Below are positions 11,112 through 49,279 of a DNA stretch of 64,000 nt, piece by piece (within the stretch, counting starts at the first letter, position 1; each line of letters starts with the position of its first letter). Source of the stretch: Heptranchias perlo (lineage: Eukaryota); contig NC_090340.1 in NCBI RefSeq assembly GCF_035084215.1, positions 14,880,001-14,944,000 of the forward strand. The letters run 5' to 3'. Both the position numbers and the translations under genes were made by a program. The notes under the pieces were generated by a model. It was not told the DNA's origin. It saw nothing but the letters and a program-made list of their open reading frames with translations, and did not search any database.

Positions 11112-11160
11112 TGCGCATGCGCAGTACCATCGACGCGATGTAGGAGCTCCACTTAAAGGG
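11112..11160 (+). promoter_or_regulatory. Putative internal promoter of the Harbinger Myb gene: NRF1-type palindrome plus TATA-like box
   Basis: TGCGCATGCGCA at 11112-11123, then CTTAAAGGG about 50 nt before the ATG. Same arrangement in copy 2 (23787-23798, TATTTAAA) and, with one mismatch, in copy 3. Confidence 0.45.
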
Positions 11161-11206
11161 GCAGTCTCCCAAAGCCCCTCCTGCTGCAATCAAGAGGTTT
11201 GAGACG

Positions 11207-13044: not shown

Positions 13045-13339
13045 TCACAAAGGGAATACACCAGGGTGTTTATTAATTTGTACATTTTTTTATATAATGT
13101 CACATTGGAGATATTAAATACTCTATTCTCACCACTCCTGCCACCTCTCGTCCATTCTTCCGCGGCCTGTGCAATAGGTGCGTTCCGTGGAGGCCATCAT
13201 GACGGCGAACACCTGCTGCCACCCATAGGGCACACTGCTGTGGGTGCAGGATTACTGGCAACACTCTTCAGTGGAGGGGGCTGGTATGGCTGCTCGCATG
13301 TTCAGGTGAGGAGATGCGAGCGCCTCGCAGTGTCTGACT

Positions 13340-14584
13340 CTAGGAGAACCGTTGACGTATGTGTGCCTCCCTGGCCCGGCGACCATCCCGGTGAGTCGTG
13401 GTTCGGCGCATGGGTCGTCCACTATCCTCTGGCGCGTCCTCCTCCTCCGCCTCCTCCTCCTCCTCCTCCTCCTCCTCGCCCTCGCCTTCCTCAATGTGGG
13501 TGGCGGGTGTGGATGGGGCCTCCTCCAGCGGCACCCCTCTCTGTTGGGCCATGTTGTGCAGGGCACAGCAGACAACTATGATTCGTCCCACTCTGAATGG
13601 TGTGTATTGCAGCTCTCCCCCAGAATGATCAAGGCACATGAAGGGCATCTTGAGAAGCCCTATGGTCTGCTCAATTGTAGACCTGGTAGCAGTGTGGCTG
13701 TCATTATACCGACGCTCCGGCTCGGTGATGGGGTTCCTCAGAGGTGTCATGAGCCACGTGTGGAGGGGATACCCCTTGTCGCCGAGGAGCCAGCGGTTGC
13801 CGGCGTTGGGTGCCTGCAGGATGGGCGGGACGGCGGACTCCCTGAGGACGAAGGCATCGAGGCAGCTGCCGGGGTATCTGGCGTACATGTGTAGGAATCT
13901 CTGGCGGTGGTTACAGATGAGCTGGGCGTTCATGGAGTGATACCCCTTCCTGTTGATGAACAGCCGTGGCTCATGCGGAGGTGCCCGTATTGCGATGTTG
14001 GTGCAGTCGATTACACCCTGCACCCGTGGGAAGCCGGCCATGGCATGGAATCCAACCGCCCTCTCCATCTGGCTGCGCTCGTCCATGGCGAAGTTGATGT
14101 AGTGCGAGGCCCTGCGGAACAACCCATCGGTGACCTGCCTTATGCACTTGTGTGCAGAGGACTGACAGACCCCGGTGATGTCCCCGGTGGCACCCTGGAA
14201 GGAACCGGATGCGAAGAAGTTGAGGGCCGTGGTGACTTTGACGGCGACAGGTAGGAAGATGCTGCTTGGTCCATCAGGGAGCAGCTCGTCGTTAAGGAGG
14301 CTGCAGATGTCGGCGACTACCTGGCGATTGACTCTGAGCCGACGTATGCACTGCTCCTCGGAGAGGTCCATGAAGCTGAGCCTCGGTCTGTAGACCCTGT
14401 GCGGAGGGTAGTGCCTCCTGCGACGCATCTCTCTCTGCGGTTGCCCTCCCTCCTGCTGTGCAGGTGGGTGTGCCACCGCACCGTGTTGGGGGGCCCCACG
14501 TCTCCGAGGCGGACGGCGTGGACTGTGAGGCTGCTGGGGCTGGTCATCCTGTTCGTCCTCCGACGATGTCAACGCACCACCCAT
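13340..14584 (-). CDS. Harbinger (HARBI1-like, DDE_Tnp_4) transposase, single exon, 414 aa from the first ATG
   Basis: Open ORF with [42 protein letters not shown] and CC.LHN. Acidic poly-E C-terminus. Confidence 0.93.
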   Translation of the reverse strand: MGGALTSSEDEQDDQPQQPHSPRRPPRRRGAPQHGAVAHPPAQQEGGQPQREMRRRRHYPPHRVYRPRLSFMDLSEEQCIRRLRVNRQVVADICSLLNDELLPDGPSSIFLPVAVKVTTALNFFASGSFQGATGDITGVCQSSAHKCIRQVTDGLFRRASHYINFAMDERSQMERAVGFHAMAGFPRVQGVIDCTNIAIRAPPHEPRLFINRKGYHSMNAQLICNHRQRFLHMYARYPGSCLDAFVLRESAVPPILQAPNAGNRWLLGDKGYPLHTWLMTPLRNPITEPERRYNDSHTATRSTIEQTIGLLKMPFMCLDHSGGELQYTPFRVGRIIVVCCALHNMAQQRGVPLEEAPSTPATHIEEGEGEEEEEEEEEAEEEDAPEDSGRPMRRTTTHRDGRRAREAHIRQRFS

Positions 14585-16176
14585 CTGGCAGGTGTTGGTC
14601 TGAGGGGTTGTGCAGGGTAGGTGGGTGTGTCCTCGGACTGGGGCTGCGGTTTCGTGTCGGTCTGTCCTCTGGCTTGGCGGGGGGTGGTGGAGGGCAGAGG
14701 TTGCCCTATGTGACGCGGTGGCCTCCTGCGTGGGTGAGGGCTCTCCCCCGTGGAGCGCACCTTGGCAGCTGCCACAGGCTGCTGGTTGCAACACGCCTGG
14801 TTGAGGAGGGACTATTTCCCCCAGTGTGGGAAACTCACTGCCTTGAACCGAAAATCCCACACTTCCTCTTTTGACAGGTGCTTCAGCTCATTAACTGACC
14901 ACAACGAGCAAGGTAAGTACTCTCAAGTGGAACCCCGCTGGCTTTAATTGCCTGCGGGATTCCCACCAGCGGGGCTTGCGCGCGCAGCCCCGCACGTCAG
15001 CGCGGTACCCGGAAGTGGCCGGGATTTCGTCGCGATCCGGTCACGTGACCGGATATCGGGATTTTCGGGGCCGCCCCGCTGGGAACCCGCCGGAAACACG
15101 ATCCCGAAATCGAGCCCCATATTCCCTTCTCCCAGTTTCTCCGTCTCCGTCGCATCTGTTCTGACAACACCATCTTTTGCACCAGTGCTTCTGATATGTC
15201 TTCCTTTTTCCTCAACCGAGGATTCCCCTCCACTGTAGTTGACAGGGCCCTGTCTGTCCTGTTTCCTGCACTTCTGCCATTAATCCTTCCCTTCCCTCCC
15301 GGCAACATGAAAGGGATCCCCTTGTCCTCATCTTCCAACCTTCCAGCCTCCACATTCAACCCTCAGTCATTTTCACCACATCCAGCACGCTCTCACCACC
15401 AAACACATCTTCCCCTCCCCTCCCCTTTCAGCATTCCACAGGGATGGCTTCCTCCGCAACACTCTCGTTTACTCTTCCGTCACTTCCAACACCCGCCCTC
15501 CTCCTCACACGACCTTCCCGTGCAAGCACAGGAGATGCAACATCTGCCCCTTCACCTCTTCCCTTCCCACAGTCCAGGGCCCCAAACACACCTTCCAGGT
15601 GAAACAACAATTTAATGTACTTCTTTCAAATTAGTATACTGTATCCGCTGCACACAATGTGGTCTCCTCGAAATCGGAGAGAGCAAACGCAGACTGGGTG
15701 ATTGCTTTGCTGAACACCTCTGCTCTGTCCGCAAGCATGACTCTGACCTGCCGGTCACTTGCCATTTTCATTCCTCTTCCCACTCCTACTCTGATATCTC
15801 TGTCCTTGACCTCTTGCACTGTTCAAATGAAACTAGAGGAACAGCACCTCTTCTTTCGTTTAGGCACTTCACAACCTTCTGGACTCAATATTGATTTCAA
15901 TAACTTCAGATCATATCCGCTGCTCCGATTTTTTCAGTCAGCTAGTGCTGGTAATGGGTCTGCTGCTGCCATTTAAATCTGATCCTGAGCAATCTTTTGT
16001 TTCTTGACCTGTCCCATTACCACCTTTCTTGCCTTGCACCATCATCCCTTTTGTCATTTAATCACTCGTGCCCTCGACCCTATCACAGACCTTCCCTTTT
16101 GTTCTTTCCTCCCCTCCACCCCACCTTTTCCTGACTCTGTACTTGCTCAAAAACTTTAACTCTTTTAACATCTTCC

Positions 16177-23294: not shown

Positions 23295-23881
23295 GGGCCA
23301 GATGTTAGCAGGGCTGCGGGTTCTCGGCGGGGTGGGGGGTGGCTATCGGGCGCGTGGGTAACGCGCCCGGTGAAATTCGTGAGTTTCCCGCGCGATTGTA
23401 GCATCCAATCCACTAATTGGATGCACTTATCTGCTCCTCCGGGTTCCCCACTGCTGATCTGCGCGTCGGGCGGGCTGCACATGCGCAGTAAGATCTGTCA
23501 GCTGGCGGCGCTCCAGTTAAAGGGGCAGTCCTCCACTGATTGATGCTCTAACAAATAGAAGAAATTCCAGCTTGGAGCAGCCCAGGGGAAGGCTGCTCCC
23601 AGCTTAATGATTCCTCACTCCAGGGGCCCGATTTTAGCAGGCGTGCGGGTTCCCGGCGGGTGGTCCATCGGGAGCGTGGAAAACGCGGACGGCTAAATGA
23701 GTGCACCCCCCGCGCGATCGCGGGATAATTGATGCCATTAAGCCGTGGTTATGGGTTCTCCGCTCCCCAGCTGCGCGCCGGCGGCCTGCGCATGCGCATT
23801 GACGTTCGCGCGATGGTGGAGCTCTATTTAAAGGGGCAGTCCACCAAAGCCCCTCCAGCTTCAAACAAGAGGCATCACACC

Positions 23882-25702
23882 ATGGAGCACCCCAGGGGTA
23901 AGGCTGCACCACGGTTTTCGGACCTCGCGCTCCAGCTGCTGCTGGACGGTGTGAGGAGGAGGAGGGACACGCTTTTCCCGACTGACGGACGAAAGTGCCC
24001 TGGCTCCGCCACCAGGAAGGCATGGGCAGAGGTGGCGGCGGAGGTCAGCAGCAGGGCCAACACCACCAGGACATGGGTGCAGTGTAGAAAGCGATTCAAT
24101 GACCTCACTAGGTCCGGCAAAGTGAGTACACTAACGCACCCTCCCACAACCCGTCTCCAACATCACGCCAAACACCTCACAACCCCTTCTGCACAGCCAC
24201 CACAGCGCTCCCGCAGCAATCCTCACAGCCACTCAACTACCATCCTCACCGTGCCTGCACGTACCCACCGTCCCTGTCCCCACTCGAACACTACCACACA
24301 CCCCAATCCCCATGCAATGGGATGGGCATGTGGCACACGCATCCTCCCATCCATCTGCCCCACGCTCAACCCACCCACACCGATGCTTGAGGCGTCTCAC
24401 AATGCAATCTGCACTGACTCACGCATCTGTGTTTTGCCTTGACAGGAGACGAGATGCAAGAACGCCAGAGAAAGGGCACGCACCGGAGGGGGCCCGCCAC
24501 ACCTGCTGGTACTGACGGACGCAGAGGTGGAGGCGTTGGATATCAGCCGCATGCAATATTGCCTCTCCGTGGCGGATGTCGAGGCTGGGGCTGCAGAAAC
24601 GGCCGGTAAGGGAAAGCTGACACTCAGCACTCATGTTCGCGAATGACCTAAGCATCACCCGGCATCTGCCGCACCGCAACGTTTGTGCACATGCCTGATA
24701 TTGCCCTCTGTTCTCTTGCAGGGCCGTCTGCGAGCCCCGTGTGTGAGGAGGGTGATTCCTCAGAGGACAATCCGGTCTCTGAGGGTGCATCGTCACATGA
24801 GCCAACCATCCACCAGCGCAGAGACACACACCTCGGTGGGTCCCCCTCGCCAACTAGTTGGGGTTGCATATGGTGAGTCACCACGCACGTGTGAGCATGA
24901 GCAGACCCTGGTGGCAGGGGCAACCACGGAGGGTCCGTGTCGGTGGGAGCACTCTTCTCCAGGCTCTGCTCAGCTGGACCCAGATGCTGAACCCAGGGGG
25001 CCACCAGTCAAAAGGAGAGTCGTCGAGGGGCACCAGCACATTGCCGAGGTACTGGGAGAGGTGTCACGTGCATTGTCCACAATCACGCAGGTGATGGAGG
25101 AGTCCAACTCCTGCATGCGGGCATTGGTGGCGCAGGTACAGGAGGGTATCGGCGACATAGTGTCGCGGGTAGGTGCGGGAACGTCTGCGGTGAAGGACAG
25201 GCTAGCCTCCCTCGAGCGTCACGCACAGCTCAACATCGAGTCCATGCAGGCCCTGACAACGGCTGTTCGGATTCAGGGTGAGCAACATTCCGCCGCCTTA
25301 AACAGGCTGACGGATACACTAGAGGTGGCCTTGCAAGGCCTCACACATGCCATCCAAACTGTCGTCCAGCAGGGTGGAAGGGGTGATGTGGGTCGAGGCC
25401 ATGAGAGGGATGATGGTGAACGGGGACATGGAAGCGGGGACGCTACTCAAGGTGCCCCCACATCTCACCCGTTGCCCCCCTCTCAACCAGGACCCGCAAT
25501 GGTGCCTCCTCTCCAGGTGGCCGAGGAGCAGGAGGAGCAGTCTGTGGAGGTGCCCTCACGGGCACCGAAACCCAGGGGGCGTTGGCCCAACGTATCTACC
25601 CGGTCAGGGCACGAACAGGAGCAACCTGCCACTACCTCTGCTGAAGCCACAGGGGTAGCACCACGTAGGGGTTCCCGTAAACGTAAGCCAAGGGTGTTAT
25701 AA
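23882..25702 (+). pseudogene. Harbinger-2 Myb/SANT gene (exons 23882-24121, 24446-24605, 24722-25702), frameshifted
   Basis: Exons 1 and 2 have the same sizes as in copy 1 (240 and 160 nt). A 2-nt deletion near 24797 (CAT--GAGCCAA vs CATCAGAGCCAA) gives a stop at 24876. Confidence 0.88.
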
Positions 25703-25976
25703 GCACAAAGGGAATGCACTAGGGTGTCTGTCAATTTGTAATGTTTTTGTTTATAGTCGTTCAATAAGTACAGAATTAAAACAATCGTTCTCACCACTCC
25801 TGCCACCTCTCGTCCATTCTTCTGCGGCTTGTGCAATAGGTCCCTTCCGTGCGGGCCATCATGATGACGAACACCTGGTCCCGCAGGAGTACTGGCACCA
25901 CTCTTCTGTGGAGGGGGCTGGTATGGCCCCTCATCTATGCACGTGATGAGATGTGAACGCCTCAGACTGTCTGATC

Positions 25977-27233
25977 CTAGGGGAACCGTTGACATATGAG
26001 TGCCTCCCTGGCCTGGCGAGCATCCTGTTGAGCCGGTGTTCGGCCAATGGGTCGTTCCTCATCCTCGCGCGCGTCCTCCTCCTCCCCCTCCTCCTCCACC
26101 TCCTCCTCCTCCTCCACCTCCTCCTCCTCATCATCGTCCTCAATGTGGGTGGCGGGTGTGGATGGGGCCTCCTCCAGCGGCACCCCTCTCTGTTGGGCCA
26201 TGTTGTGCAGGGCACAGCAGACAACTATAATTCATCCCACTCTGAGTGGCGTGTATTGGAGCGCTCCCCCAGAACGATCAAGGCACCTGAAGCGCATCTT
26301 GAGCAGCCCTATGGCCTGTTCAATTGTAGACCTGGTAGCAATGTGGCTGTCATTGTATCGACGCTGCGGCTAGGTGATGGGGTTCCTCAGAGGTGTCATG
26401 AGCCACGTGTGCAGGGGATACCCCTTGTCACCGAGGAGCCAGCCGTTGCGAGTGTTGGGTGCGTGGAAGAGGGGCGGGTCGGTGGACTCCCTGAGGACGA
26501 AGGCATCGTGGCAGCTGCTGGGGTATCTGGCACACACGTGTAGGAATCTCTGGCGCTGGTCTCAGATGAGCTGGGTGTTCATGGACTGTTACCCCTTCCT
26601 GTTGATGAACAGCCCTGGCTCATGTGGAGATGCCCGTATTGCTATGTGGGTGCAGTCGATTACACCCTGCACCCGTGGGAAGCCAGCCACAGCATGGAAA
26701 CCAACCGCCCTCTCCATCTGGCTGCGCTCGTCCATGGCGAAGTTGATGTAGTGCGAGGCCCTGTGGAACAAACCATCGGTGACCTGCCTTATGCACTTGT
26801 GTGCAGAGGACTGACAGACCCCGGTGATGTCCCCGCTGGCACCCTGGAATGATCCGGAGGCGAAGGAGTTGAGGGCAGTGGTGACTTTGACGGCAACGGG
26901 TAAGAAGATGCTGCTTGGTCCATCCGGGAGCAGCTCGTCATTAAGGAGGCTGCAGATGTCGGCGACTACCTGCCGAGTGACTCTGAGCCTCCGTATGCAC
27001 TGCTCCTCAGAGAGGTCCATGAAGCTGAGCCTCGGTCTGTTGACCTTGTGCGGAGGGTAGTGCCTCCTGCGACGCATCTCTCTCTGCGGTTGCCCTCCCT
27101 CCTGCTGTGCAGGTGGATGTGCCACAGCACCGTGTTGGGGGGCTCCACGTCGCTGAGGCAGACGGCGTGGACTGCAAGGCTGCTGGGGCTGGTGATGCTG
27201 TTCGTCCTCCGAGGATGTCGAGGCGGCCCCCAT
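25977..27233 (-). pseudogene. Harbinger-2 transposase, premature stops
   Basis: MGAASTSSED...IDCTHIAI...NRKG* (TAA at 26589-26591, where copy 1 has Y). A further in-frame stop follows. The C-terminal part is still recognisable. Confidence 0.9.
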
Positions 27234-27784
27234 CTGTCAGGTGTAGGTCTGAGGGGTTGTTCACGGTAGGTAGGTGTTTCCTCGAACTGTGGCTGCGGTT
27301 CCACGTTGGTGTATCTTCTGGCTTGGAGTGGGGTGGTGGAGGGCAGGCGTTGCCCTATGTGATGGAGTGGCCTCCTGCTTTGGTGAAGGGTCTCCCCCCC
27401 CCCACCCGCCACTGTGGAGTGCACCTTGGCAGCTGCCACAGGCTGCTGGCTGCAACACGTCTGTTTGGAGTGAGAGTGTTTCCCCCAGTACGTGAAAGAG
27501 TCTCAGTTGCATCAAAAATCCCACCTTTCCTAATAAGACAGCTGAATCAGGTCATTTAATGACCTGAAATAGCTAGTTAAATACTGTCAAGTGGCATCCC
27601 GCTGGCTTTAATTGTCTGCAGGATTCCCACCAGCGGGAGCTGCGCACGCACCCCCGCACGTCAGCGCGGAACCCGGAAGTGGGCGGGATCGAGGCGCGAT
27701 CTGGTCCCGCACCTGGATTTCGGGATTTTCAGGGCCCCCCCGCCGAGAACGCACCCGATAGTGGGTGCTAAAATCGGGCCCCAG

Positions 27785-27977
27785 GTATCAATACATGGGG
27801 TGAGGAGGAGGGGGAAGACAGAGATCTTCCTCCCGGCGGGCGGGAGGAAGCGGCCTGCCTCTGCCACCAGGAAGGCCTGGCTCGAGGTGGCAGAGGAGGT
27901 CACCAGCACCACCAACATATCGCCCACCTACATACAGTGCAGGAGGCGCTCCAATGACCTCAGTAGGTCAGCCAAAG
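27785..27977 (+). pseudogene. Harbinger-3 Myb exon 1, 3' part
   Basis: VSIHGVRRRGKTEIF..RKAWLEVAEEVTS...IQCRRRSNDLSRSAK|gtgagt; joins EQPRG.AAP..NDSSLQ at 23572-23623. Confidence 0.85.
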
Positions 27978-28490
27978 TGAGTACACTCGTCTTTCCCATG
28001 CACTCCGTCTGCCACATCACTGCCCCCACCCCACTGCCAACACTACTCTGTCACATCACCCCTCATACCCACTCAAACCTCATTCTCATCTTACCTGCAC
28101 CTACTCACCTCGCCAGTACTCATCCCGCCACTACCACTCAACCCAATCCTCATACAATCTCATGGCTCTATCTCATACCCACCCTCTCGTGCATCTCTTT
28201 CACGGCCAGCCTCACTCAACCTGCCACTACCCGTGCTGCAGCCACAGGGCATGCATCACATATGTGCAGTAGGCAGCGTAAGGCAAACGTGTCGTGAGCA
28301 TGAAGGGGATGCACAAGGGTGTTTGAGGGTTCGTCATGGGTGTTACTTATATTGAATTTCTGAACAACTCACATTACACATTATATTGGCACCACTACTG
28401 CCATGTCTTTGCGAATCCTGTCTGGTTTGTGCAATAATGCCCGCTCCTGAGGATCACTATGAGGAGCCACAACTGATGCCACCCATTGTG

Positions 28491-28965
28491 TCACTGCAGA
28501 GTGGGTGTCGGTGTATTTGCAGGGCTCTTCTGCGCAGACGACTGGGAGACATTGGCGATGTCCCTGGTTGCAGCCTGGAAGGATGCGGAGGAGAAGTTGT
28601 TGAGGGCAGTGGTGACTTTGACAGCGACAGGTAAGAAGATGGTGCTCGGGCCAGCCAGGAGCAGCTCGGCATGAAAGAGGCTGCAGATGTCCACGACTAC
28701 ATGTCGAGTGACTCTGAGCCTCCGTGTGCACTGCTGCTCAGAGAGGTCCAGGAGGCTGAGCCTCGGTCTGTGGACCCTGTGCCCTCTGCGACGCATCTCT
28801 CTCTGCGGTAGCCCTCCCTCCTGCTGTGCAGGTGGATGTGTCACAGCACTCTGTTGTGGAGCTCCACGTGTCAGAGGTGGATGGCGTGGATGGCGAGGCT
28901 GGTGAGGCTGGTGATGCTGTTCGCCCTCCGAGGAGGTCATGACTGCAGCTACGGCAGCCCCCATC
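28491..28965 (-). pseudogene. Harbinger-3 transposase N-terminal fragment
   Basis: RPRLSLLDLSEQQCTRRLRVTR...LPVAVKVTTALN.FSS.SFQ; the catalytic core is deleted. Confidence 0.85.
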
Positions 28966-29999
28966 CGCAAGATGTACATCTGAGGGGGTCCGCAAGGTAG
29001 GTACATGTCTCTGGACCCCGGGGTAAGTGTGCAAGTTGGTGACTTTGACTGTTAGGAGGAGGGTGGTGGAGGCCAAACTTTGTCCCAAATGACAGAGTGG
29101 CCTCCTGCAATGGATGAGGGTCTCCCCCCGCCACCTGTCAAATGGACCTTTGCAGCTGCCACAGGCTGACGGTTGCAACTCGTCCATTCGAGCTGGGAGT
29201 GTTTCCCCCAGTGTGGGAAACAGTCCCACTTTGTTCTAAAATCCCACATAATCGCTTAATCAGGTCAGTTAATGACCTGAAATACCTAAATAAATACTGT
29301 CAAGTGGCATCCCGCTGGCTTTAATTGCCTGCGGGATTCCCACCAGCAGGGGCTGCACGCGCACGCCGGCGCGTCCGTGGGGAACCCGGTAGTGGGCGGG
29401 ATCGAGACGGGATCCGGTCCCGCTCCGGGATTTCCCGATTTTCGGGGCCCCTCCGCCGAGACCGCACCCGATAGCGGGTGGTAAATTTATCCCCCATCTG
29501 TTCGCCAGGAGATTCCTGAATGCTCCGGGTAAAAGTCAGCCGTTTTACACTTGAGTTTCAGAGACGCGGGTAAAATCCCTTCAATAGGAACGATTTCCAA
29601 GGTGGTTGGGGAACTTTAAAAGAAAAGATTTGTAGTATTAGTCTCTGTGTATTTTTTAAATTCGTTCATGGGATGTGGGCGTCGCTGGTGAGGCCTGCAT
29701 TTATTGCCCATCCCTAATTCCCCTTGAGAAGGTGGTGGCGAGCCGCCTTATTGAACCGCTGCAGTCCGCGAGGTGATGGTTCTCCCACAGTGCTGTACTG
29801 TATAATTTGGTAAGATCGAGATCTTATCTGAAACTATAAATGCATGGCTGCAGGTTTATCATTTTTTATCACAGTTTGTACATGATTATTACAGTCGAAG
29901 AGCCAAATTTCACTTGGCGCATTCACAGGGACGAAAAGACTGGGGAAGTGAATTTTATATCGCCGTTGGTTATTAGTTTTTAGATAGAGTCCATATCTC

Positions 30000-31440: not shown

Positions 31441-31974
31441 CAATTTCTTTCTGAGAAAGGATATATCTTGCTAGGCCCAACTCTCGCTTTTACTTATGAA
31501 ATGTGTGTGCGTGTGGGTGTTTATCGCCCTGATCCTCGTTTTGACACAAAATCATTTAAAGATTAGAACCCATTCTCGGCCAAAGAGCAGCGTTACGAAT
31601 GGACCATTTGCAATGTGCAGGCAGTTGGAGTATTATTACCTGGAAATAATTATAATTTATAAATTACTCCGCTTTGGATCAATTTTACTATCATAATATC
31701 AAATTTCACGAGTCTGGTGCGATGAATGCATGTACTCGTATACGGGGCATACAACAGGGGCTAACTGTCCTCTCTTATCTGATTATATTCATTATATTAT
31801 ATCCCATTATTTTTCAACGAGATTATATTCTGCATTTCAAATGCGAATTTAAAGTATGATATAAAATTCGGTACTTAATACACATATAAAAACACAATTG
31901 TGAAAGAGCTGCAGATTCTATTAAAATGATTGTCCATCCCTTAATTTTGCTGAGTTTTAAATATAGCTGAAACT

Positions 31975-32263
31975 CTCCCAGCTCCATCTCCAATAGGTTT
32001 TTCCTGATGTTTTATTTCACAGTAATACATTCCGGAGTCTTCGATACTCACATTCACGATATCAACGGAACCACTTCCCTTTTTGACATTAAATTGCTTT
32101 CTGTTATCTGGTTCCAGGAACTTATTCTCGCCCCGACTCCACCAAACAACATCGGGAACATCTTGAAATAGTGGAAAAGTGCAGAACAAGGAAACATTTG
32201 TACCTCTGGCAAACTTAACGTGTTTCGGGAATTGATCCACTTTGCTCGAAGTTACTTCGACGT
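31975..32263 (-). pseudogene. Gene C: orphan, 3'-truncated Ig V-set exon (SIRP/NKp30-like)
   Basis: gacag|AC acceptor. KVDQFP...VSLFCTFP...VVWW...DSGMYYC...IGDGAG, then loss of the J-like strand. No donor; stop at 31941. Confidence 0.85.
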
Positions 32264-33197
32264 CTGTCAAAAAATAAACAAGAAAGCTGATTTTATAGAG
32301 TGTGTACTTTCAGGAGAAAAAACAAACGTTATGACTTAGAAATTTAAAAACAAGAAAATTAGCCAAATTAATAAAATAATGAGAAAGACGGAAAAAAGTA
32401 ATGTGCACAAAATATGACGATTTTTTGAACACCAGCTTTTTTCGATAAGCATAAAGCTGTAAGATAAACAAACACACCTGTGTAAATAATTCCGAGTAAA
32501 GATATGCACAAAGGTACGGAGCTCACAGCCATTCTGAGTGACGAACCTTAAACTGGCCATAAGCTGCAAGGAATCACCAAGCTCCTGGTCCTTTGGAAGC
32601 CACGGGTTTGTCCGTGATCTAAAGTGACGTGTCACATCACATGACTCAATTCTGTTTCTGTCGGTTAATAGCTTAAGACGTTTTTCTTAAACCAATACTG
32701 TAGCCAATTAGTTGTGAAGGATGATTAGTTTGGTGAGTAAATCTAGAGGAATGGGACCAGATTTTTTTTCTGGTTATCACATATTAGCGACAACCTAAAT
32801 ATAGGCTGAAGATTCACAATGTTCGTTATTTCTAGCGAGATCCTAAGTGCATTCTAAGGTACTCCCATTTGAGAACTGATGGGCCTGGCCAGTATTGTGG
32901 GCGGAGACTCGTTCGGACGCAGGGTTACATTGACCCACTTAAAAGATCCAGGCCACTTGGGCATATTGTAGTTGCAGGTGTAACTTACTTGCGTCCACAT
33001 GTCGCGATCTTTTAAGTCATGTAACTTGTTTGCGCCCAGATTGCACTTCTCTCTCGGAGCAAATACGGAGAGAACTCCAGGCTGTGAGTACTCCTTTCCT
33101 GTTCTTGTGGTGATAAAGCACTGTTAATTGTGCTGTTGGACTTGGTTCCGCCTATTCCTACAACACACCCTGGTCAGTGTAAAATAGAAACTCATGT

Positions 33198-37662: not shown

Positions 37663-38804
37663 CTGTAAGGTGAACAGGAACATTAAGTTACGTTGGGCGT
37701 TTGCTCAAAGAAGGCCTGAAGATAGTTCATTGGTTAAACAATGGTTGATGCTTTCAGTAACTCTGCAGTACAGAACGGCAATAATGAAGTTTAAATAAAA
37801 AATATTACATTTTTTAGATATAATATTTGAAGTAACTTATTCATCGAATGGGCGAGATATTCTGGATTAATCTGCGAAGCAGGCAACCGGTTTAGGGACC
37901 TCAAAACACTGTTTTAGGAGAGGAAGCATGTGAGAGTGATAAATTTCCCTGGACCGAAGGCCTGTTCTTGTCCTTGACCTTTCTGATTTATTAACATATA
38001 GTTTGATGAAATCGGAGGGAATTTGGTCACACGCGTTTCTCCGTTCCCCGCACTAAATTCTGGATTGCAGCAATCGGCAAAAATCTCCATTCAATTATCC
38101 GCAATGTGATTATTAAAGTAAGAATGTCACTGATTAGTAAAGGAAATCAACGGACGATGTTTTATAGATTAATGCCTGGCGAGGCTAAGATTTGTTAATA
38201 AAATGATGCATTGAACCGGCTGCACTGTAGCCAGGTTTCGGACACAGTTTAATTGAGATTTGAGAGACAGGTCCCAATCGAACTCGCAGTTGCATGGAGA
38301 GGTGTGGGTGACAAGTTGGACAGAGGGTTAATTTCAGAATTTTGCACAAGAAGCAGCAGAAAGGGGGATCAGGATCGAAACTGCATTGGGAGAAGCCCAA
38401 GATCAGACAACTTGACTGTCGTTCCTGGTAACAGTCTTCATGCAGGGATAGCCGGCAATGGTAATGAATAAAACCATTTTGACGTGGAAACAAAAAATGT
38501 GAAACATGATTAATAGTAAGCAGGAGTGGAAGTATAATCGGATATAAAAGATTACCTCCTATTTACATTTGTTATACGGCAAATAGAGGAATTTGAAGAC
38601 AGAGTGGAATTGAGAATATTTGTGTGGCGGACGACATAACCCGGGTTCACAACACATCGGATTCAATTATATTATATATTAAAACACGAATTTTATGCTT
38701 TCGTTGATATTTCCCATAAACTATCTTCATGATAATCAGTATGTACAAATTCTACGATGTAGCTCATTGCGAATTTGACAGTAGCTGGAGTGTTGGCCTC
38801 GTAC

Positions 38805-39109
38805 CTGGGTTAGATTTAGTATAGGTGATAACAGCTGGAGTCTCGAGGGAGACATGAGATACCGAGCAGGTATATTTGGCGCCGCTCGGGACAGGCTGCG
38901 TCTCTTCCAAAGTGCTGGAAACTTCATACAGCCCCTCAGTTTTCTGCCGTTTAATGGTGTGTATTCCTTTGCAGTTTCGACGCCATTTTTATACCAAGTG
39001 AGGGTGAAGTTCTCCGGATAAAACTCAGCCGTTTCACACATAAGACTCAGAGACGCAGATGAATTCCCTTCAGCTGTCATAGAGACAATAGTCAGTGGAG
39101 TTGGGGCAG
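38805..39109 (-). CDS. Gene B C1-set exon (1-nt frameshift near 38968-38970)
   Basis: AAPTPLTIV...LMCETAEFYPENFTLTWYKNG, frameshift, then GIHTIK...LYEVSSTLEETQP...YTCSVSH. Homologous to 465-776. Confidence 0.9.
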
Positions 39110-39322
39110 CTGCGGAACAGAAAATGAGCAAAATCGAGTTACTGGGCACCATTAGGAGAAATTAAATATGATTCTGATTTACCTTCGGTCCATTTTATGT
39201 TAACAGCAACATTCCAAAGCACAGCCTCCTGTCGCTTTAATGTTAGGCACATCATCTGCACACACCTCATCCATATCTCTCATCGTCGCCGGTGTCTGTT
39301 CAATTTTACCTGCGCTCTCGAG

Positions 39323-42202
39323 TTTTTTTTTTATTCGTTCACGGGATGTGGGCGTCGCTGGCAAGGCCGGCATTTATTGCCCATCCCTAATTGCCCTCGA
39401 GAAGGTGGTGGTGAGCCGCCTTCTTCAACCGCTGCAGTCCGTGTGGTGACGGTTCTCCCACAGTGCTGTTAGGAAGGGAGTTCCAGGATTTTGACCCAGC
39501 GACAATGAAGGAACGGCGATATATTTCCAAGTCGGGATGGTGTGTGACTTGGAGGGGAACGTGCAGGTGGTGTTGTTCCCATACGCCTGCTGCCCTTGTC
39601 CTTCTAGGTGGTAGAGGTCGCGGGTTTGGGAGGTGCTGTCGAAGAAGCCTTGGCGAGTTGCTGCAGTGCATCCTGTGGATGGTGCACACTGCAGCCACAG
39701 TGCGCCGGTGGTGAAGGGAGTGAATGTTTAGGGTGGTGGATGGGGTGCCAATCAAGCGGGCTGCTTTATCTTGGATGGTGTCGAGCTTCTTGAGTGTTGT
39801 TGGAGCTGCACTCATCCAGGCAAGTGGAGAGTATTCCATCACACTCCTGACTTGTGCCTTGTAGATGGTGGAAAGGCTTTGGGGAGTCAGGAGGTCAGTC
39901 ACTCGCCGCAGAATACCCAGCCTCTGACCTGCTCTCGTAGCCACGGTATTTATATGGCTGGTCCAGTTAAGTTTCTGGTCAATGGTGAGCCCCAGGATGT
40001 TGATGGTGGGGGATTCGGCGATGGTAATGCCGTTGAATGTCAAGGGGAGGTGGTTAGACTCTCTCTTGTTCGAGATGGTCATTGCCTGGCACTTATCTGG
40101 CGCGAATGTTACTTGCCACTGATGAGCCCAAGCCTGGATGTTGTCCAGGTCTTGCTGCATGCAGGCTCGGACTGCTTCATTATCTGAGGGGTTGCGAATG
40201 GAACTGAACACTGTGCAGTCATCAGCGAACATCCCCATTTCTGACCTTATGATGGAGGGAAGGTCATTGATGAAGCAGCTGAAGATGGTTGGGCCTAGGA
40301 CACTGCCCTGAGGAACTCCTGCAGCAATGCCCTGGGGCTGAGATGATTGGCCTCCAACAACCACTACCATCTTCCTTTGTGCTAGGTATGACTCCAGCCA
40401 CTGGAGAGTTTTCCCCCTGATTCCCATTGACTTCAATTTTACCAGGGCTCCTTGGTGCCACACTCGGTCAAATGCTGCCTTGATGTCAAGGGCAGTCACT
40501 CTCACCTCACCTCTGGAATTCAGCTCTTTTGTCCATGTTTGGACCAAGGCTGTAATGAGGTCTGGAGCCGAGTGGTCCTGGCGGAACCCAAACTGAGCAT
40601 TGGTGAGCAGGTTATTGGTGAGTAAGTGCCGCTTGATAGCACTGTCGACGACACCTTCCATCACTTTGCTGATGATTGAGAGTAGACTGATGGGGCGGTA
40701 ATTGGCCGGATTGGATTTGTCCTGCTTTTTGTGGACAGGACATACCTGGGCAATTTTCCACATTGTCGGGTGGATGCCAGTGTTGTAGCTGACTGGAACA
40801 GCTTGGCTAGAGGCGCAGCTAGTTCTGGAGCACAAGTCTTCAGCACTACAGCTGGGATGTTGTCGGGGCCCATAGCCTTTGCTGTATCCAGTGCACTCAG
40901 CCGTTTCTTGATATCACGTGGAGTGAATCGAATTGGCCAAAGACTGGCTTCCGTAATGGTGGGGATATCGGGAGGAGGCTGAGATGGATTATCCACTCGG
41001 CACTTCTGGCTGAAGATGGTTGCAAACGCTTCAGCCTTGTCTTTTGCACTCACGTGCTGGACTCCGCCATCATTGAGAATGGGGATGTTTGCAGAGCCTC
41101 CTCCTCCCGTTAGTTGTTTAATTGTCCACCACCATTCACGACTGGATGTGGCAGGACTGCAGAGCTTTGATCTGATCCGTTGGTTGTGGAATCGCTTAGC
41201 TCTGTCTATAGCATGTTGCTTCCGCTGTTTAGCATGCATGTAGTCCTGAGTTGTAGCTTCACCAGGTTGGCACCTCATTTTTAGGTACGCCTGGTGCTGC
41301 TCCTGGCATGCTCTTCTACACTCCTTATAGAACCAGGGTTGATCCCCTGGCTTGTTGGTAATGGTAGAGTGAGGAATATGCCGGGCCATGAGGTTACAGA
41401 TTGTGCTGGAATACAATTCTGCTGCTGCTGATGGCCCACAGCGCCTCATGGAATCCCAGTTTTGAGCTGCTAGATCTGTTCTGAATCTATCCCATTTAGC
41501 ACGGTGGTAGTGCCACACAACACGTTGGATGGTGTCCTCAGTGCGAAGACGGGATTTCATCTCCACGAGGACTGTGCGGTGGTCACTCCTACCAATACTG
41601 TCATGGACAGATGCATTTGCGACAGGTAGATTCGTGAGGACGAGGTCAAGTAAGTTTTTCCCTCGTGTTGGTTCACTCACCACCTGCCGCAGGCCCAGTC
41701 TAGCAGCTATGTCCTTCAGGACTCGGCCAGCTCGGTTAGTAGTGGTGCTACCAAGCCACTCTTGGTGATGGACATTGAAGTCCCCCACCCAGAGTACATT
41801 TTGTGCCCTTGCTACCCTCAGTGCTTCCTCCAAGTGGTGCTCAACATGGAGGAGGACTGATTCATCAGCTGAGGGAGGACGGTAGGTGGTAATCAGCAGG
41901 AGGTTTCCTTGCCCATGTTTGACCTGATGCCATGAGATTTCATGGGGTCCAGAGTCAATGTTGAGGACTCCCAGGGCCACTCCCTCCTGACTGTATATCA
42001 CTGTACCGCCACCTCTGGTGGGTCTGTCCTGCCGGTGGGACAGGACATACCCAGGGATGGTGATGGAAGAGTCTGGGACGTTGGCTGAAAGATATGATTC
42101 TGTGAGTATGGCTATGTCAGGCTGTTGCTTGACTAGTCTGTGGGACAGCTCTCCCAATTTTGGCACAAGTCCCCAGATGTTAGTAAGGAGGACCTTGCAG
42201 GG
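39323..42202 (-). mobile_element. Young CR1-group LINE (family X): near-complete APE-RT ORF2 with one frameshift, polyA tail
   Basis: ORFs 40661-42166 (EN: LTES, YRPP, GDFN, LDL, SDH) and 39387-40835 (RT: [29 protein letters not shown]), joined by a 1-nt deletion near 40792. Confidence 0.93.
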
Positions 42203-42684
42203 TCCAAAACATTGAGATGTTCAACAGACACGTCGCAACCATTTTCTGCGTTTCATAACCCAAATAATTAAATAAATAAACTCTGGGGGAAAGATGTCAT
42301 CCCCAGTCCCTCCATGTTTGGTACTCACAGATAGACAGAGACAAGTAAGCTGCACGTTGTCGATGATAAAACGAGGGTATTAGTCGGTATCGGACAGATC
42401 TCACAGCCGAGGCATGATAATTGGTGAAAGAAGCTATATTCGGTTGAACCTCTGGCGGTTTCAGCAACACAGTTCCTGCGTATTGTTGCATTTATTGGGG
42501 GTTAGTGAGGTGATAACGTTGTGAATTCCAAGCTCCAGTTTGTTGAGTGAATCCGTTGATCAACAGTTAGTTGCACGCTGGCTTTCAAATCCGTGACGCT
42601 AACGAGCCAATAATTATATGAGAATTAATTACAGGAATGATAAACCCCAGAGACAGCGGTGGGGGCAGACAGAGCATCCAATAA

Positions 42685-43105: not shown

Positions 43106-43485
43106 TTTTGTTCAAAATGGGCTAAGAGGCGTGTGTATGGTCGTTAAGGCTCATTACGAAAACAATGTTCAGTCAGTTATATGCTCGAAATTTGTTCCGA
43201 CCTTCCGCTATCAGACATCTGGTGTACAGATTGTATTTGGAGTTATTGTCTAACTGGTCAATATTGATACTTTTTGCAGCACTCTGCGTATGAAGGGTTA
43301 CATTGTATGTCTAAGTAGCATTTCTATACAGAGAACACGAACATACAACTTAACTTTCTCGCGAAATGTAATAATATAAATCATTATACTGTTAAAATTT
43401 GCACAATAAAAAAATTGTAAAACATCCCCGTTTGTAACGTTGGATATATTTACGAGAGTCCCGTTCTCCAGTGTTTCACACTCAC

Positions 43486-43806
43486 CGTGCACAATTAGAT
43501 GTGATCCGGTCCCATTTCCTCGAACTATACCCTGACGCATCACTGCGCAGTGATAGATTCCAGAGTCTTGGAAAGTCGCGCTCAGCAACTGAAAGAAACC
43601 GCTCGCTTTACTTTTCAGACCGAATCGTTTTCTGTCATCGGCGCTTGTGCGCAGGTATTCATTCTCACCCTGTTTCCACCAATACACTCTTACCCAGGGA
43701 TGGTCTTGAGAGATGGGGAATATGCAGTAGAAGGTGATGTTTCCCCCTCTGGATACAGCCGCTTGTTCGGGCGCTTGAGTCACTCTGAACGAAGTGTGGT
43801 CCACAG
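43486..43806 (-). CDS. Gene B V-set exon with germline-joined J-like segment
   Basis: gacag|..FRVTQAP..ITFYCIFP..VYWWKQ..DSGIYHCAV..GNGTGSHLIVH|gtgag, 321 nt, open, phase 1-1. Confidence 0.93.
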
Positions 43807-43952
43807 CTGTCAGAAAACATCATCAAGTAAGGATTAATTTTATCAGATGGGACATGGAGTTGGAAGAGAGAAAGAAGAATCGATATAGAGGAATTAAGGT
43901 TCACTAAATTAAAGTGGAAACTATTTCGGAAGCATTTTATAAATTAAAGTAG

Positions 43953-45664: not shown

Positions 45665-46875
45665 CTGAGGTCTCCACCGTCACAGATGCCAGTCGTCAGC
45701 CAAATCGATGCACTTCACGAGATATCAAGAAACGGTTGATTGCACTGGATAAAGCAACACCCCCCGCTGAAGTTCTGAAGACCTGCTACAGAATTAGCCA
45801 CACGCCCAACCAAGTGTTCAAATACAGCTACAACGCTGGCATCTACCCGACAAAGTGGAAAATTGCTCAGATGTGTCCTGGCGACGAAAAGCAGGACAAA
45901 TCCAATCGGGCCAATTACCACTCTATCAGCCTGCTCTCAATCATCAGTAAAGTGATGCAAGGTGTCATCGATACTGCTATCAAGTGGCACTTACTCAACA
46001 ATTACCTGCTCACTGATGCTCAGGATCGCGCAGCTCAAAAACTCATCACAGCCTTTGTCCAATCATGCACAAAAGAGCTGAATTCAAGGGGGAGGTGAGA
46101 ATGACTGCCCTAAACATCAAGGCAACATTTGACCGAATGTGGCACCAAGGAGCCTTAGTTAAATCGAAATCAATGGGGATCGGGGAGAAAACTCTACTGT
46201 GGCTGAGGTCAAACCGAGCGCAAAGAAAGATGGTGTTGGAGATCAATCACCTCAACCCCAAGACAGCACTGCAGGAATTTCTCAGGGCAGTGTCCAAGGC
46301 TCCACCATCTTCAGCTGCATCATTAATGACCTTCCCTCTATCATAAGGTCAGAAGTGGGGCTTTTCGTTGATGATTGCACAGTGTTCAGTTCCATTCACA
46401 ATTCTTCAGATAATATAGACTGAGCCCACATGCAACAAGACCTGGACAACATCCAGGTTTGGGCTGAGAAGTGGCAAGTAACATTCACGCCACGCAAGTG
46501 CCAGGCAATGACCATCTCCTACAAGAGAGTCTAACCATCTCATCTTGCCATTCAATGGCATTACCATCGGCGAATAACCCACCATCAACCTCCTGGGGGT
46601 CACCATTATAGCCACATAAATACTGTGGCAACAAGAGCAGGTCAGAGGCTGGGTATTTTGCGGCAAGTGACTCACCTCCTGACTCCTCAAAGCCTTTCCA
46701 GCATCTACAAAGTACAAGTCAGGAGTGTGTTGGAATACTCTCCACTTGTCTGGATGTGTGCAGCTCCAACAACACTCAAGAAACTCGACACCATCAAGGA
46801 CAAAGCAGTCCGTTGATTGGCACCCCATCCACCACCTCAATCATGCATTACCTCCACCACAGATGCACGTGGCAG
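45665..46875 (+). mobile_element. Degenerate LINE family X copy
   Basis: DIKKRL.ALD..K..WKIAQ..KQDKSN.ANY..ISLLSIISKVM; RAGQRLGILR. Confidence 0.85.
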
Positions 46876-46998
46876 CAGTAAGAAATAAGAAATAGGAGCA
46901 GGAGCGGGCCATACAGCCCCGAGCCTGCTCCACCACTCAATAAGATCATTGTAAACAATTTTACAACACCAAGTTATAGTCCAGCAATTTTATTTTAA

Positions 46999-47039
46999 AT
47001 TCACAAGCTTTCGGAGGCTACCTCCTTCCTCAGGTGAAC
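46999..47039 (-). ncRNA. Mirror copy of the minimal hammerhead ribozyme motif
   Basis: Exact reverse complement of 47063-47103. Confidence 0.75.
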
Positions 47040-47062
47040 GATGTGGAAATGATTTCCACATC

Positions 47063-47103
47063 GTTCACCTGAGGAAGGAGGTAGCCTCCGAAAGCTTGTG
47101 AAT
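47063..47103 (+). ncRNA. Minimal type I hammerhead ribozyme motif
   Basis: GTTCAC-CTGAGGA-A-GGAGG(TAG)CCTCC-GAAA-GC-TT-GTGAAT: helix I, CUGANGA, helix II, GAAA, palindromic mini helix III, UH. Confidence 0.75.
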
Positions 47104-49279
47104 TTAAAATAAAATTGCTGGACTATAACTTGGTGTTGTAAAATTGTTTACAATTGTCAACCCCAGTCCATCACCGGCATCTCCACAATAAGATCATGGC
47201 TAATCTCCGACCTCAACCCACTTTCCCGCCCGATCACCATATCCCTTGATTCCCTGGAAGTCCAGAAATCTATCGATCTCAGTCTTGAATATATTCAACT
47301 AATAAGCATCCACAGCTATCTGGGATAGAGAATTCCAAATTTTCACAACCTTCTGGGTAAACAAATTTCTCCTCATCTCAATCCTAAATCGCCGAGCCTT
47401 TACCCTAAGATTATGCCCCCTGGTTCTAGACTCTCCAGCCAAGGGAAACAGCCTCTCACCATCTACCCGGTCAAGCCCTCTCAGAATCTTATATATTTCA
47501 ATGAGATCAGCTCTCATTCTTCTAAACTCCATTCTACTCAATCTCTCCTCATAGGACAACCCTCTCATCCCAGGAATCAATCTAGTGAACCTTCGTTGCA
47601 CTGCCTGTAAGACAAGTATATCCTTCCTTTGGTTAGGTGATCAAGATTGTACACAGTACTCTAGGTGTGGTCTCACCAAAGCTCTGTACAATTGTAGCAA
47701 GACTTCGTTACCTTTGTACTACAAACCCCTTGCAATGAAAATCAACGTATCCTTTGCCTTCCTAATCGTTGCTGCACCTGCATGTTAACTTTCTGTGTTT
47801 CGTGTACAAGGACACCAAAATCTCTCTGAGTACCAACATTTATTGGTTTCTTACCACTTAAAAAATATTCTGTTTTTCTATTCTTCCAACCAAAGTGAAC
47901 AACTTCACATTTCCTGACATTATACTCCATCTTCCACCTTCTTGCCCACTCACTTAACCTGTCTATGTGCCTTTGCAGACTCATTGTGTCCTCCTCACAG
48001 CTTACTTTCCCACCTAGTTTTGTATCGTCATCAAACTTGGATACATTACACTCAGTCCCTTCATTTAAGTCATTAATATAGATTATAAATAGCTGAGGCC
48101 CAAGCACTGAGCATTGCAGCACCCCACTAGATACAGCCTGCCAACCTGAAAAGGAACCGTTTATTCCTACTTTCTGTTGTCTGTCTATTAACCAATCCTC
48201 TCACAGTGCTAATATATTACCCTCAACCCCATGAGCCCTTATGTTGTTCAACAACCTTTTGCATGGCACCTTATCGAATGCCTTTTGAAAATCCAAATAT
48301 ACTACATCTACTGGTTCCCCTTTATCTAGCCTGCTCGTTACCCCCTCAAAAAACTCTAATGGATTTGTCAAACACGATTCATAAAACCATCATGACTCTG
48401 GCTAATCATACTATGATGTTCTAAATGCTCTGTTACCACATACTTAATAATAGATTCCAGCATTTTCCCGACAACTGATGTCAGTCTAACTGGCCTGTCG
48501 TTCCTTGTTTTCTCTCTCCTTTCTTGAACAGCGGTGTTACATTTGCTACCTTCCAATCATCAGGGACCGTTCTGAAATCTAGGGAATTTTGGAAGAACAA
48601 AATCAATGCATCCACTATCTCTGCAACCTCCTCGTTTAGAATCCTCTGATGTCGGCCATCAGGTCCAGGGGATTTGTTGGCTTTTAGTCCCAATAATTTA
48701 TCCAGTACTTTTTCGTTACTATTTTTAATTACTTTAATTTCCTCACTCTCATTAGACCATTGGTTCCCCGCTATTCCTGGTATTTTTTTCGTGTCTTTTC
48801 CTGTGAAGACAGATACAAAATATTTGTTTAACGTCTCTGCCATTTCCTTATTCCCGATTATAATTTCTCTTGTCTCAGCCTTTAAGGGTCCCATGTTTAC
48901 TTTTGCTAATCTCTTCCCTTTTCCGTACTTGTAGAAGCTCTAACAATCTGTTTTTATATTTCTCACTAATTTACTCACATTCTATTTTCTCACCCTTTAT
49001 GAATTTTTGATCATCCTTTGCTGGTTTCTAAAACTCTCCCAATCCTCAAGCTTACAACACTTCTTGGCTCCATTATAAGCCTCTTCTTTTAATCTAATAC
49101 TATTCCTAACTTCTTCAGTTAGCCACAGATGGATCACTTTTCCCATGGAATTTTTATTCCTCAATGGAATGTATATTTGTTGAGAATTATGAAATATTTC
49201 TTTAAATGTTGACCATTGCTTCTCGACCATCAATTTAATCTAATTTCCCAATCAATCCTCTCCAACTCGCCCTAGTACC

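What the first reader, a model, noticed from the sequence alone, without database searches (positions are those of the whole stretch)
46938..47197. Perfect 207-bp palindrome carrying two opposed hammerhead ribozymes, flanked by a 12-bp TSD
Seen: 103-bp arms without a mismatch around a 1-nt loop, a 31-bp unpaired extension, and the duplicated target CAATAAGATCAT within a CR1 tail. Each arm contains a complete minimal type I hammerhead (helix I TTCAC/GTGAA, CUGAGGA, helix II GGAGG/CCTCC, GAAA, palindromic AAGCTT, predicted cleavage after CUU at about 47097). Established: Penelope-like elements carry minimal hammerheads in their pLTRs and often integrate with inverted pLTRs; minimal hammerheads are thought to cleave as dimers. 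Inference: a very recent non-coding mini-retroelement. Transcription from either strand would give a ribozyme plus a 103-bp dsRNA hairpin, a potential endo-siRNA source and cruciform fragile site about 3 kb upstream of gene B.
Basis: partly seen in the sequence, partly recalled or inferred. Interest (0 to 1): 0.72.

Follow-up and report, generated by a model that had tools for sequence, protein, structure and literature searches.

The report
Double-primed Penelope retrotransposon stub
This 207-base mirror repeat is one of hundreds of near-identical stubs of a known kind of jumping gene (Penelope-like), and the copies suggest that each stub was likely made by copying the front end of a single RNA twice, once onto each cut DNA strand, which would explain a long-unexplained insertion pattern of this group.

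Summary
The palindrome, 31-bp tail, 12-bp duplication and minimal hammerheads are real. It is not a self-propagating mini-element. It is a young stub of an abundant Penelope-like retrotransposon, whose RT/GIY-YIG parent is in the same genome. The arms are the parent's 5' leader, running from 29 bases after a TATA box to just before the ATG. About 40% of young arms stop at that likely start site. Of 58 two-armed copies, 58 carry the tail on one arm only. A U-run at the start is lengthened almost only in arms that stop there, and both arms of an insertion share its length (36 of 44; 19 expected). Both target flanks show the same motif. Best reading (inferred): a dimeric enzyme nicks both strands 12-13 bp apart, primes at two sites on one RNA, runs off its 5' end, and the two cDNAs are joined. 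A read-through RNA would fold into a 103-bp hairpin that hides the ribozyme. The architecture is published, and this scan noted it on other DNA (102 findings); the run-length and target-symmetry tests appear new.

The parts
46938..46949 (.). Left target-site duplication (12 bp)
46948..47050 (-). Untailed inverted arm: element leader +1 to about +101/+103 (outer 2 nt shared with the duplication)
47000..47038 (-). Minimal type I hammerhead motif on the - strand; predicted cut after 47005
   Evidence: sequence symmetry
47051..47051 (.). Single central G/C: either the templated -1 base or, more likely, a copy of the RNA cap (inferred)
   Evidence: L245 and L254 have the same design with slipped runs on both arms
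47052..47154 (+). Tailed arm: element leader +1 to +103; +1 (A47052) lies 29 nt after the start of the parent's TATA box, in an initiator-like motif
47064..47102 (+). Minimal type I hammerhead motif (core, extra A after A9, 5-bp helix II, palindromic AGCU in place of helix III); predicted cut after 47097 (+46)
   Evidence: PMC4209133
47155..47185 (+). Penelope 'tail' (+104 to +134); in the parent the ATG follows at +139
47186..47197 (.). Right target-site duplication (12 bp)
46880..46937 (-). 3' end of the host LINE (CR1-like, label recalled), left of the insertion
47198..47640 (-). Host LINE continuing right of the insertion, with an ORF2-like C-terminal remnant at 47299-47640

Best explanation
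This is a young, promoterless stub of an endonuclease-bearing Penelope-like retrotransposon, likely made in one step when both nicked strands of the target primed reverse transcription on the same RNA and the two short cDNAs ran off its predicted 5' end and were joined. SHOWN: the arms equal the parent's leader from TATA+30 to just before the ATG; the insertion has a 12-bp duplication; two-armed copies carry the tail on exactly one arm; arm ends pile up at TATA+30; the two arms of an insertion share variants and U-run length; both target flanks carry the same motif. INFERRED: TATA+30 is the Pol II start; the lengthened U-run is slippage during initiation and so marks individual RNA molecules; the central G/C is a cap copy; a homodimer makes two nicks 12-13 bp apart and uses the two RT start sites (about +102 and +138) once each; the cDNA 3' ends are joined through microhomology. 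The hammerheads are passengers: the copied RNA was uncut at +46, and a read-through transcript would mask them in a 103-bp hairpin.
For: Parent: 918-residue stop-to-stop ORF in L079 (RVT_1 E 3e-10; C-terminal GIY-YIG E 4e-4, just under the gathering score), starting right after the tail. Abundance: 2,529 matches to a young-arm pattern and 73,067 to the wider hammerhead pattern; reversed-pattern controls 0. Start-site pile-up: 21 of the first 100 rows end at +1 against 7 over the next 40 positions (by eye); computed on the 30 fetched rows, 10 end at TATA+30, 1 elsewhere, 19 read through. 462 arms break at +1 (lower bound) and 802 at +2, about 40% of young arms together. A second subfamily with a different spacing to the ribozyme breaks at TATA+31 to +33 in 7 of 30 rows. 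One tail: 58 of 58 classifiable among 61 two-armed loci, p 7e-18; 43 of 43 classifiable among 50 loci (partly the same loci). U-run: lengthened in 76 of 100 rows and in none that read through upstream (by eye); same length in both arms in 36 of 44 double run-off loci, shuffle mean 19.2, 0 of 100,000 shuffles as high. Duplications found in 104 of 110 loci, 12-13 bp in 83. Flanks read outward give GGCAG-W-G on both sides, profile correlation 0.86 against -0.08 in a distal control (98 of 110 loci). In vitro the Anolis enzyme cuts and extends both strands and starts at two sites that bound the tail (PMC11167929).
Against: No RNA 5'-end data: the laid runs were contigs only, so the start site, cap and slippage are inferred from DNA. 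The second subfamily's breaks are broader (8 of 30 rows at TATA+24 to +29). 8 of 44 loci have unequal run lengths, and L257 and L258 join arms of two different subfamilies within one duplication (by eye), so one RNA is not universal. Arm concordance is also predicted by fold-back synthesis or later arm homogenisation. The central G can be read as the templated -1 base with a 1-nt microhomology. Among 33 single-arm rows that join genomic DNA, C after +1 was not enriched (9 of 33, by eye). In vitro, start-site use did not differ between strands. The flank motif may be inflated by repeated insertion into the same host repeats. The U-run could slip during reverse transcription instead.
Confidence: 0.7

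Rival explanations
1. Fold-back or self-priming: one cDNA is made, folds back near its 3' end and copies itself into the second arm. This is akin to the self-priming proposed for Penelope palindromes in PMC3846280.
For: It predicts shared variants and shared run length. The common junction that resumes at +11 (13 loci in the first 100 rows, by eye) can form as a small hairpin.
Against: Zero-loop junctions are as common (12 loci in the same rows) and cannot form by intramolecular fold-back. The arm that is longer at the centre lacks the tail in 32 of 58 loci, so it cannot have templated the tailed arm. L257 and L258 have arms of two subfamilies. Both flanks carry the same motif.
Confidence: 0.15
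2. One reading: a non-autonomous palindromic mini-element that is transcribed and remobilised as a unit, with working ribozymes.
For: 21 distinct loci (22 matches; L094 equals L095) share the exact 27-nt centre and near-identical arms. Non-autonomous PLE derivatives exist (retrozymes, bioRxiv 10.64898/2026.07.22.740005).
Against: The TATA box is absent from the stub. This centre is one of many junction types at the same hot spot (386 matches; 241 loci). The tail lies on either side of the central base (16 right, 5 left). The read-through RNA is predicted to be a closed hairpin. It is not a tandem array.
Confidence: 0.07
3. Twin priming on two independent RNAs, with the arms made alike afterwards by palindrome-directed repair or gene conversion.
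For: Mixed-subfamily arms exist (L257, L258), as do unequal runs (8 of 44). The hammerhead's palindromic AGCU could pair two RNAs.
Against: It does not explain the strict one-tail rule (58 of 58). Private arm differences persist in 19 of 50 loci, so homogenisation is not efficient.
Confidence: 0.06
4. Assembly or library fold-back artefact.
For: Long perfect palindromes can be artefacts (general knowledge). No read or contig spanning this locus was obtained.
Against: 12-bp duplication of a motif that is single in a sister repeat; one-sided tail; the same design with its own duplication at 20 of 21 distinct loci.
Confidence: 0.02

Closest known systems
Insertions of endonuclease-bearing Penelope-like elements with inverted pLTR, 30-40 bp tail and TSD (Pen2a_Av and others, PMC3846280; overview PMC8557442; passages read)
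   Same: Head-to-head inverted pLTR, 31-bp tail on one arm, short duplication, palindrome at the inverted junction, TATA and Inr-like motifs in the pLTR.
   Different: No ORF at all: both arms stop at the likely start site, giving a perfect 207-bp palindrome. The copies favour priming from both target strands over the self-priming on an antisense template proposed there.
Minimal hammerheads of metazoan PLEs (PMC4209133; parts 1-2 of 4 read)
   Same: Core, extra base between A9 and G10.1, G10.1-C11.1 pair, palindromic 15.2-16.2; that paper already notes dual motifs 100-700 bp apart on opposite strands.
   Different: Here they are 66 bp apart inside a perfect palindrome that would mask them; activity not tested.
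Anolis Poseidon (PAc) in vitro mechanism (PMC11167929; parts 1-2 of 4 and passages read)
   Same: Both strands cut and extended, two RT start sites bounding the tail, predicted dimer, ribozyme cleavage not needed.
   Different: Here the tail lies in the 5' leader before the ATG, not inside the ORF. Genomic copies show the two sites used once each per insertion. The passages read do not explain the inverted arm.
L1 twin priming and untemplated 5' G from the cap (PMC4859970; passages read)
   Same: A second primer from the other target strand yields an inversion; an extra G marks capped full-length 5' ends.
   Different: In L1 the two cDNAs copy different parts of the RNA (recalled); here both copy the same part, giving a palindrome.
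Animal non-LTR retrozymes (bioRxiv 10.64898/2026.07.22.740005; part 1 of 5 read)
   Same: Non-coding, PLE-pLTR-derived, type I hammerhead.
   Different: Retrozymes are head-to-tail tandem repeats; this is a single head-to-head insertion.

Membership tests
Endonuclease-bearing Penelope-like element (insertion) | Parent ORF with RT and C-terminal GIY-YIG endonuclease sharing the pLTR | tested here: met
   L079 ORF: RVT_1 E 3.2e-10; GIY-YIG E 4e-4, 21.1 bits against a cut-off of 22.6, and no hit for the L085 copy; VVY..YIG motif visible; window arm 99% identical to the L079 pLTR
Endonuclease-bearing Penelope-like element (insertion) | Inverted 5'-truncated pLTR copy at the 5' end | tested here: met
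Endonuclease-bearing Penelope-like element (insertion) | 30-40 bp tail at one end only | tested here: met
   31 bp here; 58 of 58 classifiable loci
Endonuclease-bearing Penelope-like element (insertion) | Short target-site duplication | tested here: met
   12 bp here; 104 of 110 loci
Endonuclease-bearing Penelope-like element (insertion) | Hammerhead motif in the pLTR; partial tandems | tested here: met
   tandem unit of about 3,060 bp in L076
Neptune/Nematis clades of PLEs | [quoted passage not shown] | tested here: met
   C-x4-C-x2-C in the linker of P0002; one Cys is changed in P0001
Neptune/Nematis clades of PLEs | RT phylogeny within Neptune | not tested
   no reference PLE RT set was on hand
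Minimal type I hammerhead (PLE type) | Conserved core, extra base after A9, G10.1-C11.1, palindromic helix III remnant, covarying helix II | tested here: met
   sequence; helix II variants with G-C to A-U and G-C to C-G double changes among the 100 listed rows (by eye; the pattern fixed only the two closing pairs)
Minimal type I hammerhead (PLE type) | Self-cleavage as a dimer | not testable with these tools
   no clear genomic footprint of cleavage: breaks at +48/+47/+46 number 187/149/112 raw
Non-LTR retrozyme | Tandem head-to-tail units each with a hammerhead | tested here: not met
   single head-to-head pair; no direct repeat of the unit in 46000-48200
Non-LTR retrozyme | Circular RNA product | not testable with these tools
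   contigs only
Self-propagating non-autonomous mini-element (SINE/MITE-like) | Fixed unit structure with its own promoter, copied as a whole | tested here: not met
   no TATA in the stub; continuum of junctions; tail on either side of the central base

The most novel reading that the evidence does not exclude
These stubs are molecular records of single Penelope RNA molecules. Slippage of RNA polymerase II on the U-run at the start site gives each RNA a natural barcode. Both arms of an insertion carry the same barcode and a cap-derived base, and the target has a symmetric C-W-CTGCC-N12-GGCAG-W-G motif. Penelope-like elements would therefore integrate by a symmetric dimer that copies one RNA twice from two fixed start sites, never needing a separate second-strand step, and the short stubs are the counterpart of a doubled 'strong-stop' cDNA.
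Probability: 0.5. Interest if true: 0.65.

Novelty: new member of a known kind. Interest (0 to 1): 0.42.

Why it matters
The locus itself is ordinary: one of at least 241 near-perfect palindromes of its young subfamily, in a genome with about 73,000 matches to the ribozyme motif. Its value is mechanistic. How Penelope-like elements build their inverted arms and one-sided tail is stated as unresolved in PMC8557442, PMC3846280 and PMC11167929. The copies give countable predictions (one tail per insertion, run-off at TATA+30, shared U-run length, symmetric target motif, 12-13 bp stagger) that an existing in vitro system can test directly. These RTs are the closest relatives of telomerase RT. Thousands of perfect 100-bp hairpins may also be a source of double-stranded RNA or instability, which was not tested here.

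Tried and rejected
DNA search of the genome with the arm found nothing because common words are skipped; patterns were used instead. Rfam: no hammerhead hit. PDB sequence search of the parent ORF: one weak RT hit, E 0.56. Sequencing runs: no RNA holder listed; the laid runs were short contigs and could show neither this locus, an empty allele nor an RNA start. Ribozyme-cut footprint: breaks at +47 (149; about 116 after dropping 22 of 100 substitution rows by eye) against +48 (187; about 112 after dropping 40 of 100) and +46 (112; about 60 after dropping 46 of 100), so no isolated peak; no wider baseline was measured. A 10-nt match between this target and the RNA just after the tail is not general (2 of 83 loci with 9 or more matching letters; p 0.66 against a distal control). 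Cap copy tested on single-arm genomic junctions: C not enriched (9 of 33 rows, by eye). Leader exon of gene B: only one weak candidate, at 60613. Literature searches listed no paper holding both 'twin priming' and 'pLTR', and the 3 papers on reiterative transcription were not on PLEs. The library lacks most subscription papers, and no supplements were read; those of PMC11167929 may bear on start-site pairing.

Full report
OBSERVATION. The window holds a perfect inverted repeat, arms 46948-47050 and 47052-47154 around G47051, and a 12-bp direct repeat at 46938-46949 and 47186-47197. The next-best perfect inverted repeat in 64 kb has 12-nt arms. Removing the insert restores a continuous match to two sister copies of the host LINE end (84.7% and 71%), so the direct repeat is a target-site duplication. 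The host label CR1 is recalled. A minimal hammerhead motif is present once per strand. It has the extra base after A9, the G10.1-C11.1 pair and the palindromic AGCU described for PLE ribozymes in PMC4209133 (parts 1-2 of 4 read), and helix II shows double changes among related copies (by eye). Rfam does not detect it. A transcript through the palindrome is predicted to fold as a 103-bp hairpin, -187 kcal/mol, z -29, so the ribozyme would be masked; the single arm alone folds helices I and II.

WHAT IT IS. The window lies in a 3.25-Gb vertebrate assembly, probably a cartilaginous fish (recalled repeat types; an earlier AI note on this genome says shark). The exact 27-nt centre occurs at 22 places, control 0. 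All 22 were fetched: 21 are distinct, flanks differ, and 20 of the 21 have an 11-16 bp duplication. A young-arm pattern has 2,529 matches, many as inverted pairs 0.1-5.7 kb apart; a wider ribozyme pattern has 73,067. Long copies carry the parent ORF. [quoted passage not shown] A C-x4-C-x2-C linker motif points to the Neptune/Nematis type as defined in PMC8557442 (passages); no tree was built. The ATG follows the tail directly, so the window's tailed arm is the parent's 5' leader and nothing else.

THE CENTRE MARKS A FIXED END. Upstream of the arm the parent has TATAAAT beginning 29 nt before the base at 47052 (+1), which sits in a YYANWYY initiator-like motif (consensus recalled). In the first 100 rows, 21 arms end at +1 and 7 end in the next 40 positions (by eye); on the 30 fetched rows, 10 end at TATA+30, 1 elsewhere and 19 read through (palindromes count once per arm). 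Genome-wide, 462 arms break at +1 (lower bound) and 802 at +2, together about 40% of young arms. A second subfamily (5,865 matches), whose TATA is 8 nt closer to the ribozyme, breaks at TATA+31 to +33 in 7 of 30 rows, at +24 to +29 in 8, and reads through in 15: the same rule, less sharp. At the predicted ribozyme cut there is no isolated peak (187, 149, 112 raw at +48, +47, +46), in line with the in vitro finding that uncut RNA is the main template (PMC11167929).

AN UNEXPECTED BARCODE. The control search at +2 showed that 76 of 100 listed arms have a lengthened run (4 to 10 T in place of 3) right at the start, and none of the 100 continues into the upstream promoter sequence (by eye). This fits slippage at a transcription start or at the template end (inference). 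All 50 loci listed (of 241) were analysed; 6 with a read-through arm were set aside. In the other 44 both arms have the same run length in 36 (24 with 3/3, 9 with 4/4, 3 with 5/5), against 19.2 in shuffles, 0 of 100,000 as high; among 20 with a lengthened arm 12 match. Two loci (L245, L254) have the window's design with 4/4 runs. A slipped RNA starting at +1 has no templated -1 base, so their central G/C is best read as a cap copy, as described for L1 and SVA (PMC4859970, passages). L266 has C on both arms. Against this, C is not enriched at single-arm genomic junctions (9 of 33, by eye), and at the window itself the G could be templated.

TWO PRIMERS, TWO SITES. Of 95 rows analysed (the last 5 listed were not fetched), 61 have a second arm and 58 have both ends classifiable. 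All 58 have one tailed (+129 to +141) and one untailed (+94 to +108) arm, and the arm that is longer at the centre is tailed in 26 and untailed in 32. Of the 50 loci, 43 are classifiable and all 43 follow the rule (partly overlapping set). Duplications were found in 104 of 110 loci, 12 bp in 54 and 13 bp in 29. In 98 loci with 11-14 bp duplications both flanks, read outward, favour G-G-C-A-G-W-G; positions 3-10 correlate at 0.86, a distal control at -0.08 (positions 1-2 are biased by how duplications were called, and repeated hits in host repeats were not removed). This fits a symmetric dimer nicking both strands. The Anolis enzyme cuts and extends both strands, starts at two sites bounding the tail and is predicted to be a dimer.

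MODEL. Inferred: Pol II starts at +1 in an upstream pLTR. The RNP nicks a loosely symmetric site 12-13 bp apart, and each 3' end primes at one of two start sites on the same RNA. When the start sites nearest the cap are used, both cDNAs run off after about 100 and 135 nt, and repair joins them through 1-3 nt of microhomology, often with small templated inserts. Longer members arise when downstream pLTRs of a tandem transcript are used. The stub lacks TATA and is likely a dead end. Fold-back self-priming (PMC3846280, passages) explains the matching arms but not zero-loop junctions, the 32 loci whose longer arm is untailed, or L257 and L258, whose arms come from two subfamilies within one 12-bp duplication (by eye). 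Those two loci also show that one RNA is the rule, not a law.

WHAT IS KNOWN. Inverted pLTRs, one-sided tails, junction palindromes, TATA/Inr motifs and opposed minimal hammerheads are all published. D. virilis Penelope has a TATA-less internal promoter (PMC2377424, passages); PMC6765202 (passages) states that the start lies in the upstream partner's pLTR. Dimer cleavage (Lunse et al.) was seen only as a citation. My searches listed no paper that joins twin priming with pLTRs or slippage with PLEs, but the library is incomplete and supplements were not read. This scan holds 102 earlier findings of the same kind in at least 21 genomes, several with the twin-priming, same-RNA and start-site readings. 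I had formed those readings before looking, and AI notes are not independent support. None was returned for the slippage and cap words. Two notes suggest ends at the ribozyme cut in other genomes; I do not see a clear peak here.

CONTEXT. The nearest host exon is a V-set Ig exon at 43301-43819 on the minus strand, about 3.1 kb away; its leader was not found. No RNA holder was listed, and the laid contigs were uninformative. Effects on this gene, siRNA production and cruciform fragility are untested.

VERDICT. Real, young, ordinary in kind: a Penelope-like insertion stub (about 0.95). The double-priming, one-RNA, run-off mechanism is the best explanation (about 0.7). Interest 0.42, for the mechanistic tests rather than for the locus.

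Noticed in passing
window 431-826 (+), 31941-32309 (-), 38736-39161 (-), 43298-43819 (-): Ig V-set and C1-set exons (Pfam): a cluster of V-C1 type immunoglobulin-superfamily genes among dense repeats.
   Followed up: partly
window 39387-42220 (-): Young, near full-length LINE with two long ORF pieces (RVT_1 E 5e-39; the upstream piece looks like an AP endonuclease, recalled), between the V and C1 exons.
   Followed up: partly
window 11144-14887 and 23729-29235: Two to three copies of a Harbinger-like DNA transposon: DDE_Tnp_4 ORF on - (E 2e-32) facing a Myb/SANT-like ORF on + (recalled).
   Followed up: partly
window 10578-10913 (+): Old Penelope-type RT fragment, 33% identical to the young parent ORF.
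   Followed up: no
G000:C1:4435532-4467212 (one search list): Hammerhead motifs on one strand about 3,080 bp apart: head-to-tail tandem arrays of the element, the arrangement expected of source loci.
   Followed up: no
L257 and L258: Single insertions (12-bp duplication) whose two arms belong to different subfamilies: two RNAs can serve one insertion.
   Followed up: partly
L266 (G000:C4:84646228): Junction with an untemplated C at the end of both run-off arms and one base between: the clearest candidate for two cap copies.
   Followed up: partly
one search list, arms breaking at +47: The next base is T in more than half of the listed rows (by eye); unexplained, and possibly a weak trace of ribozyme-cut templates.
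   Followed up: no
L094 and L095 (contigs C555 and C1445): The same insertion on two contigs: likely duplicated haplotype sequence in the assembly.
   Followed up: yes
window 47193-47202 and L260: The target in this LINE-end motif matches 9-10 nt of the RNA just after the tail; not a general feature.
   Followed up: yes
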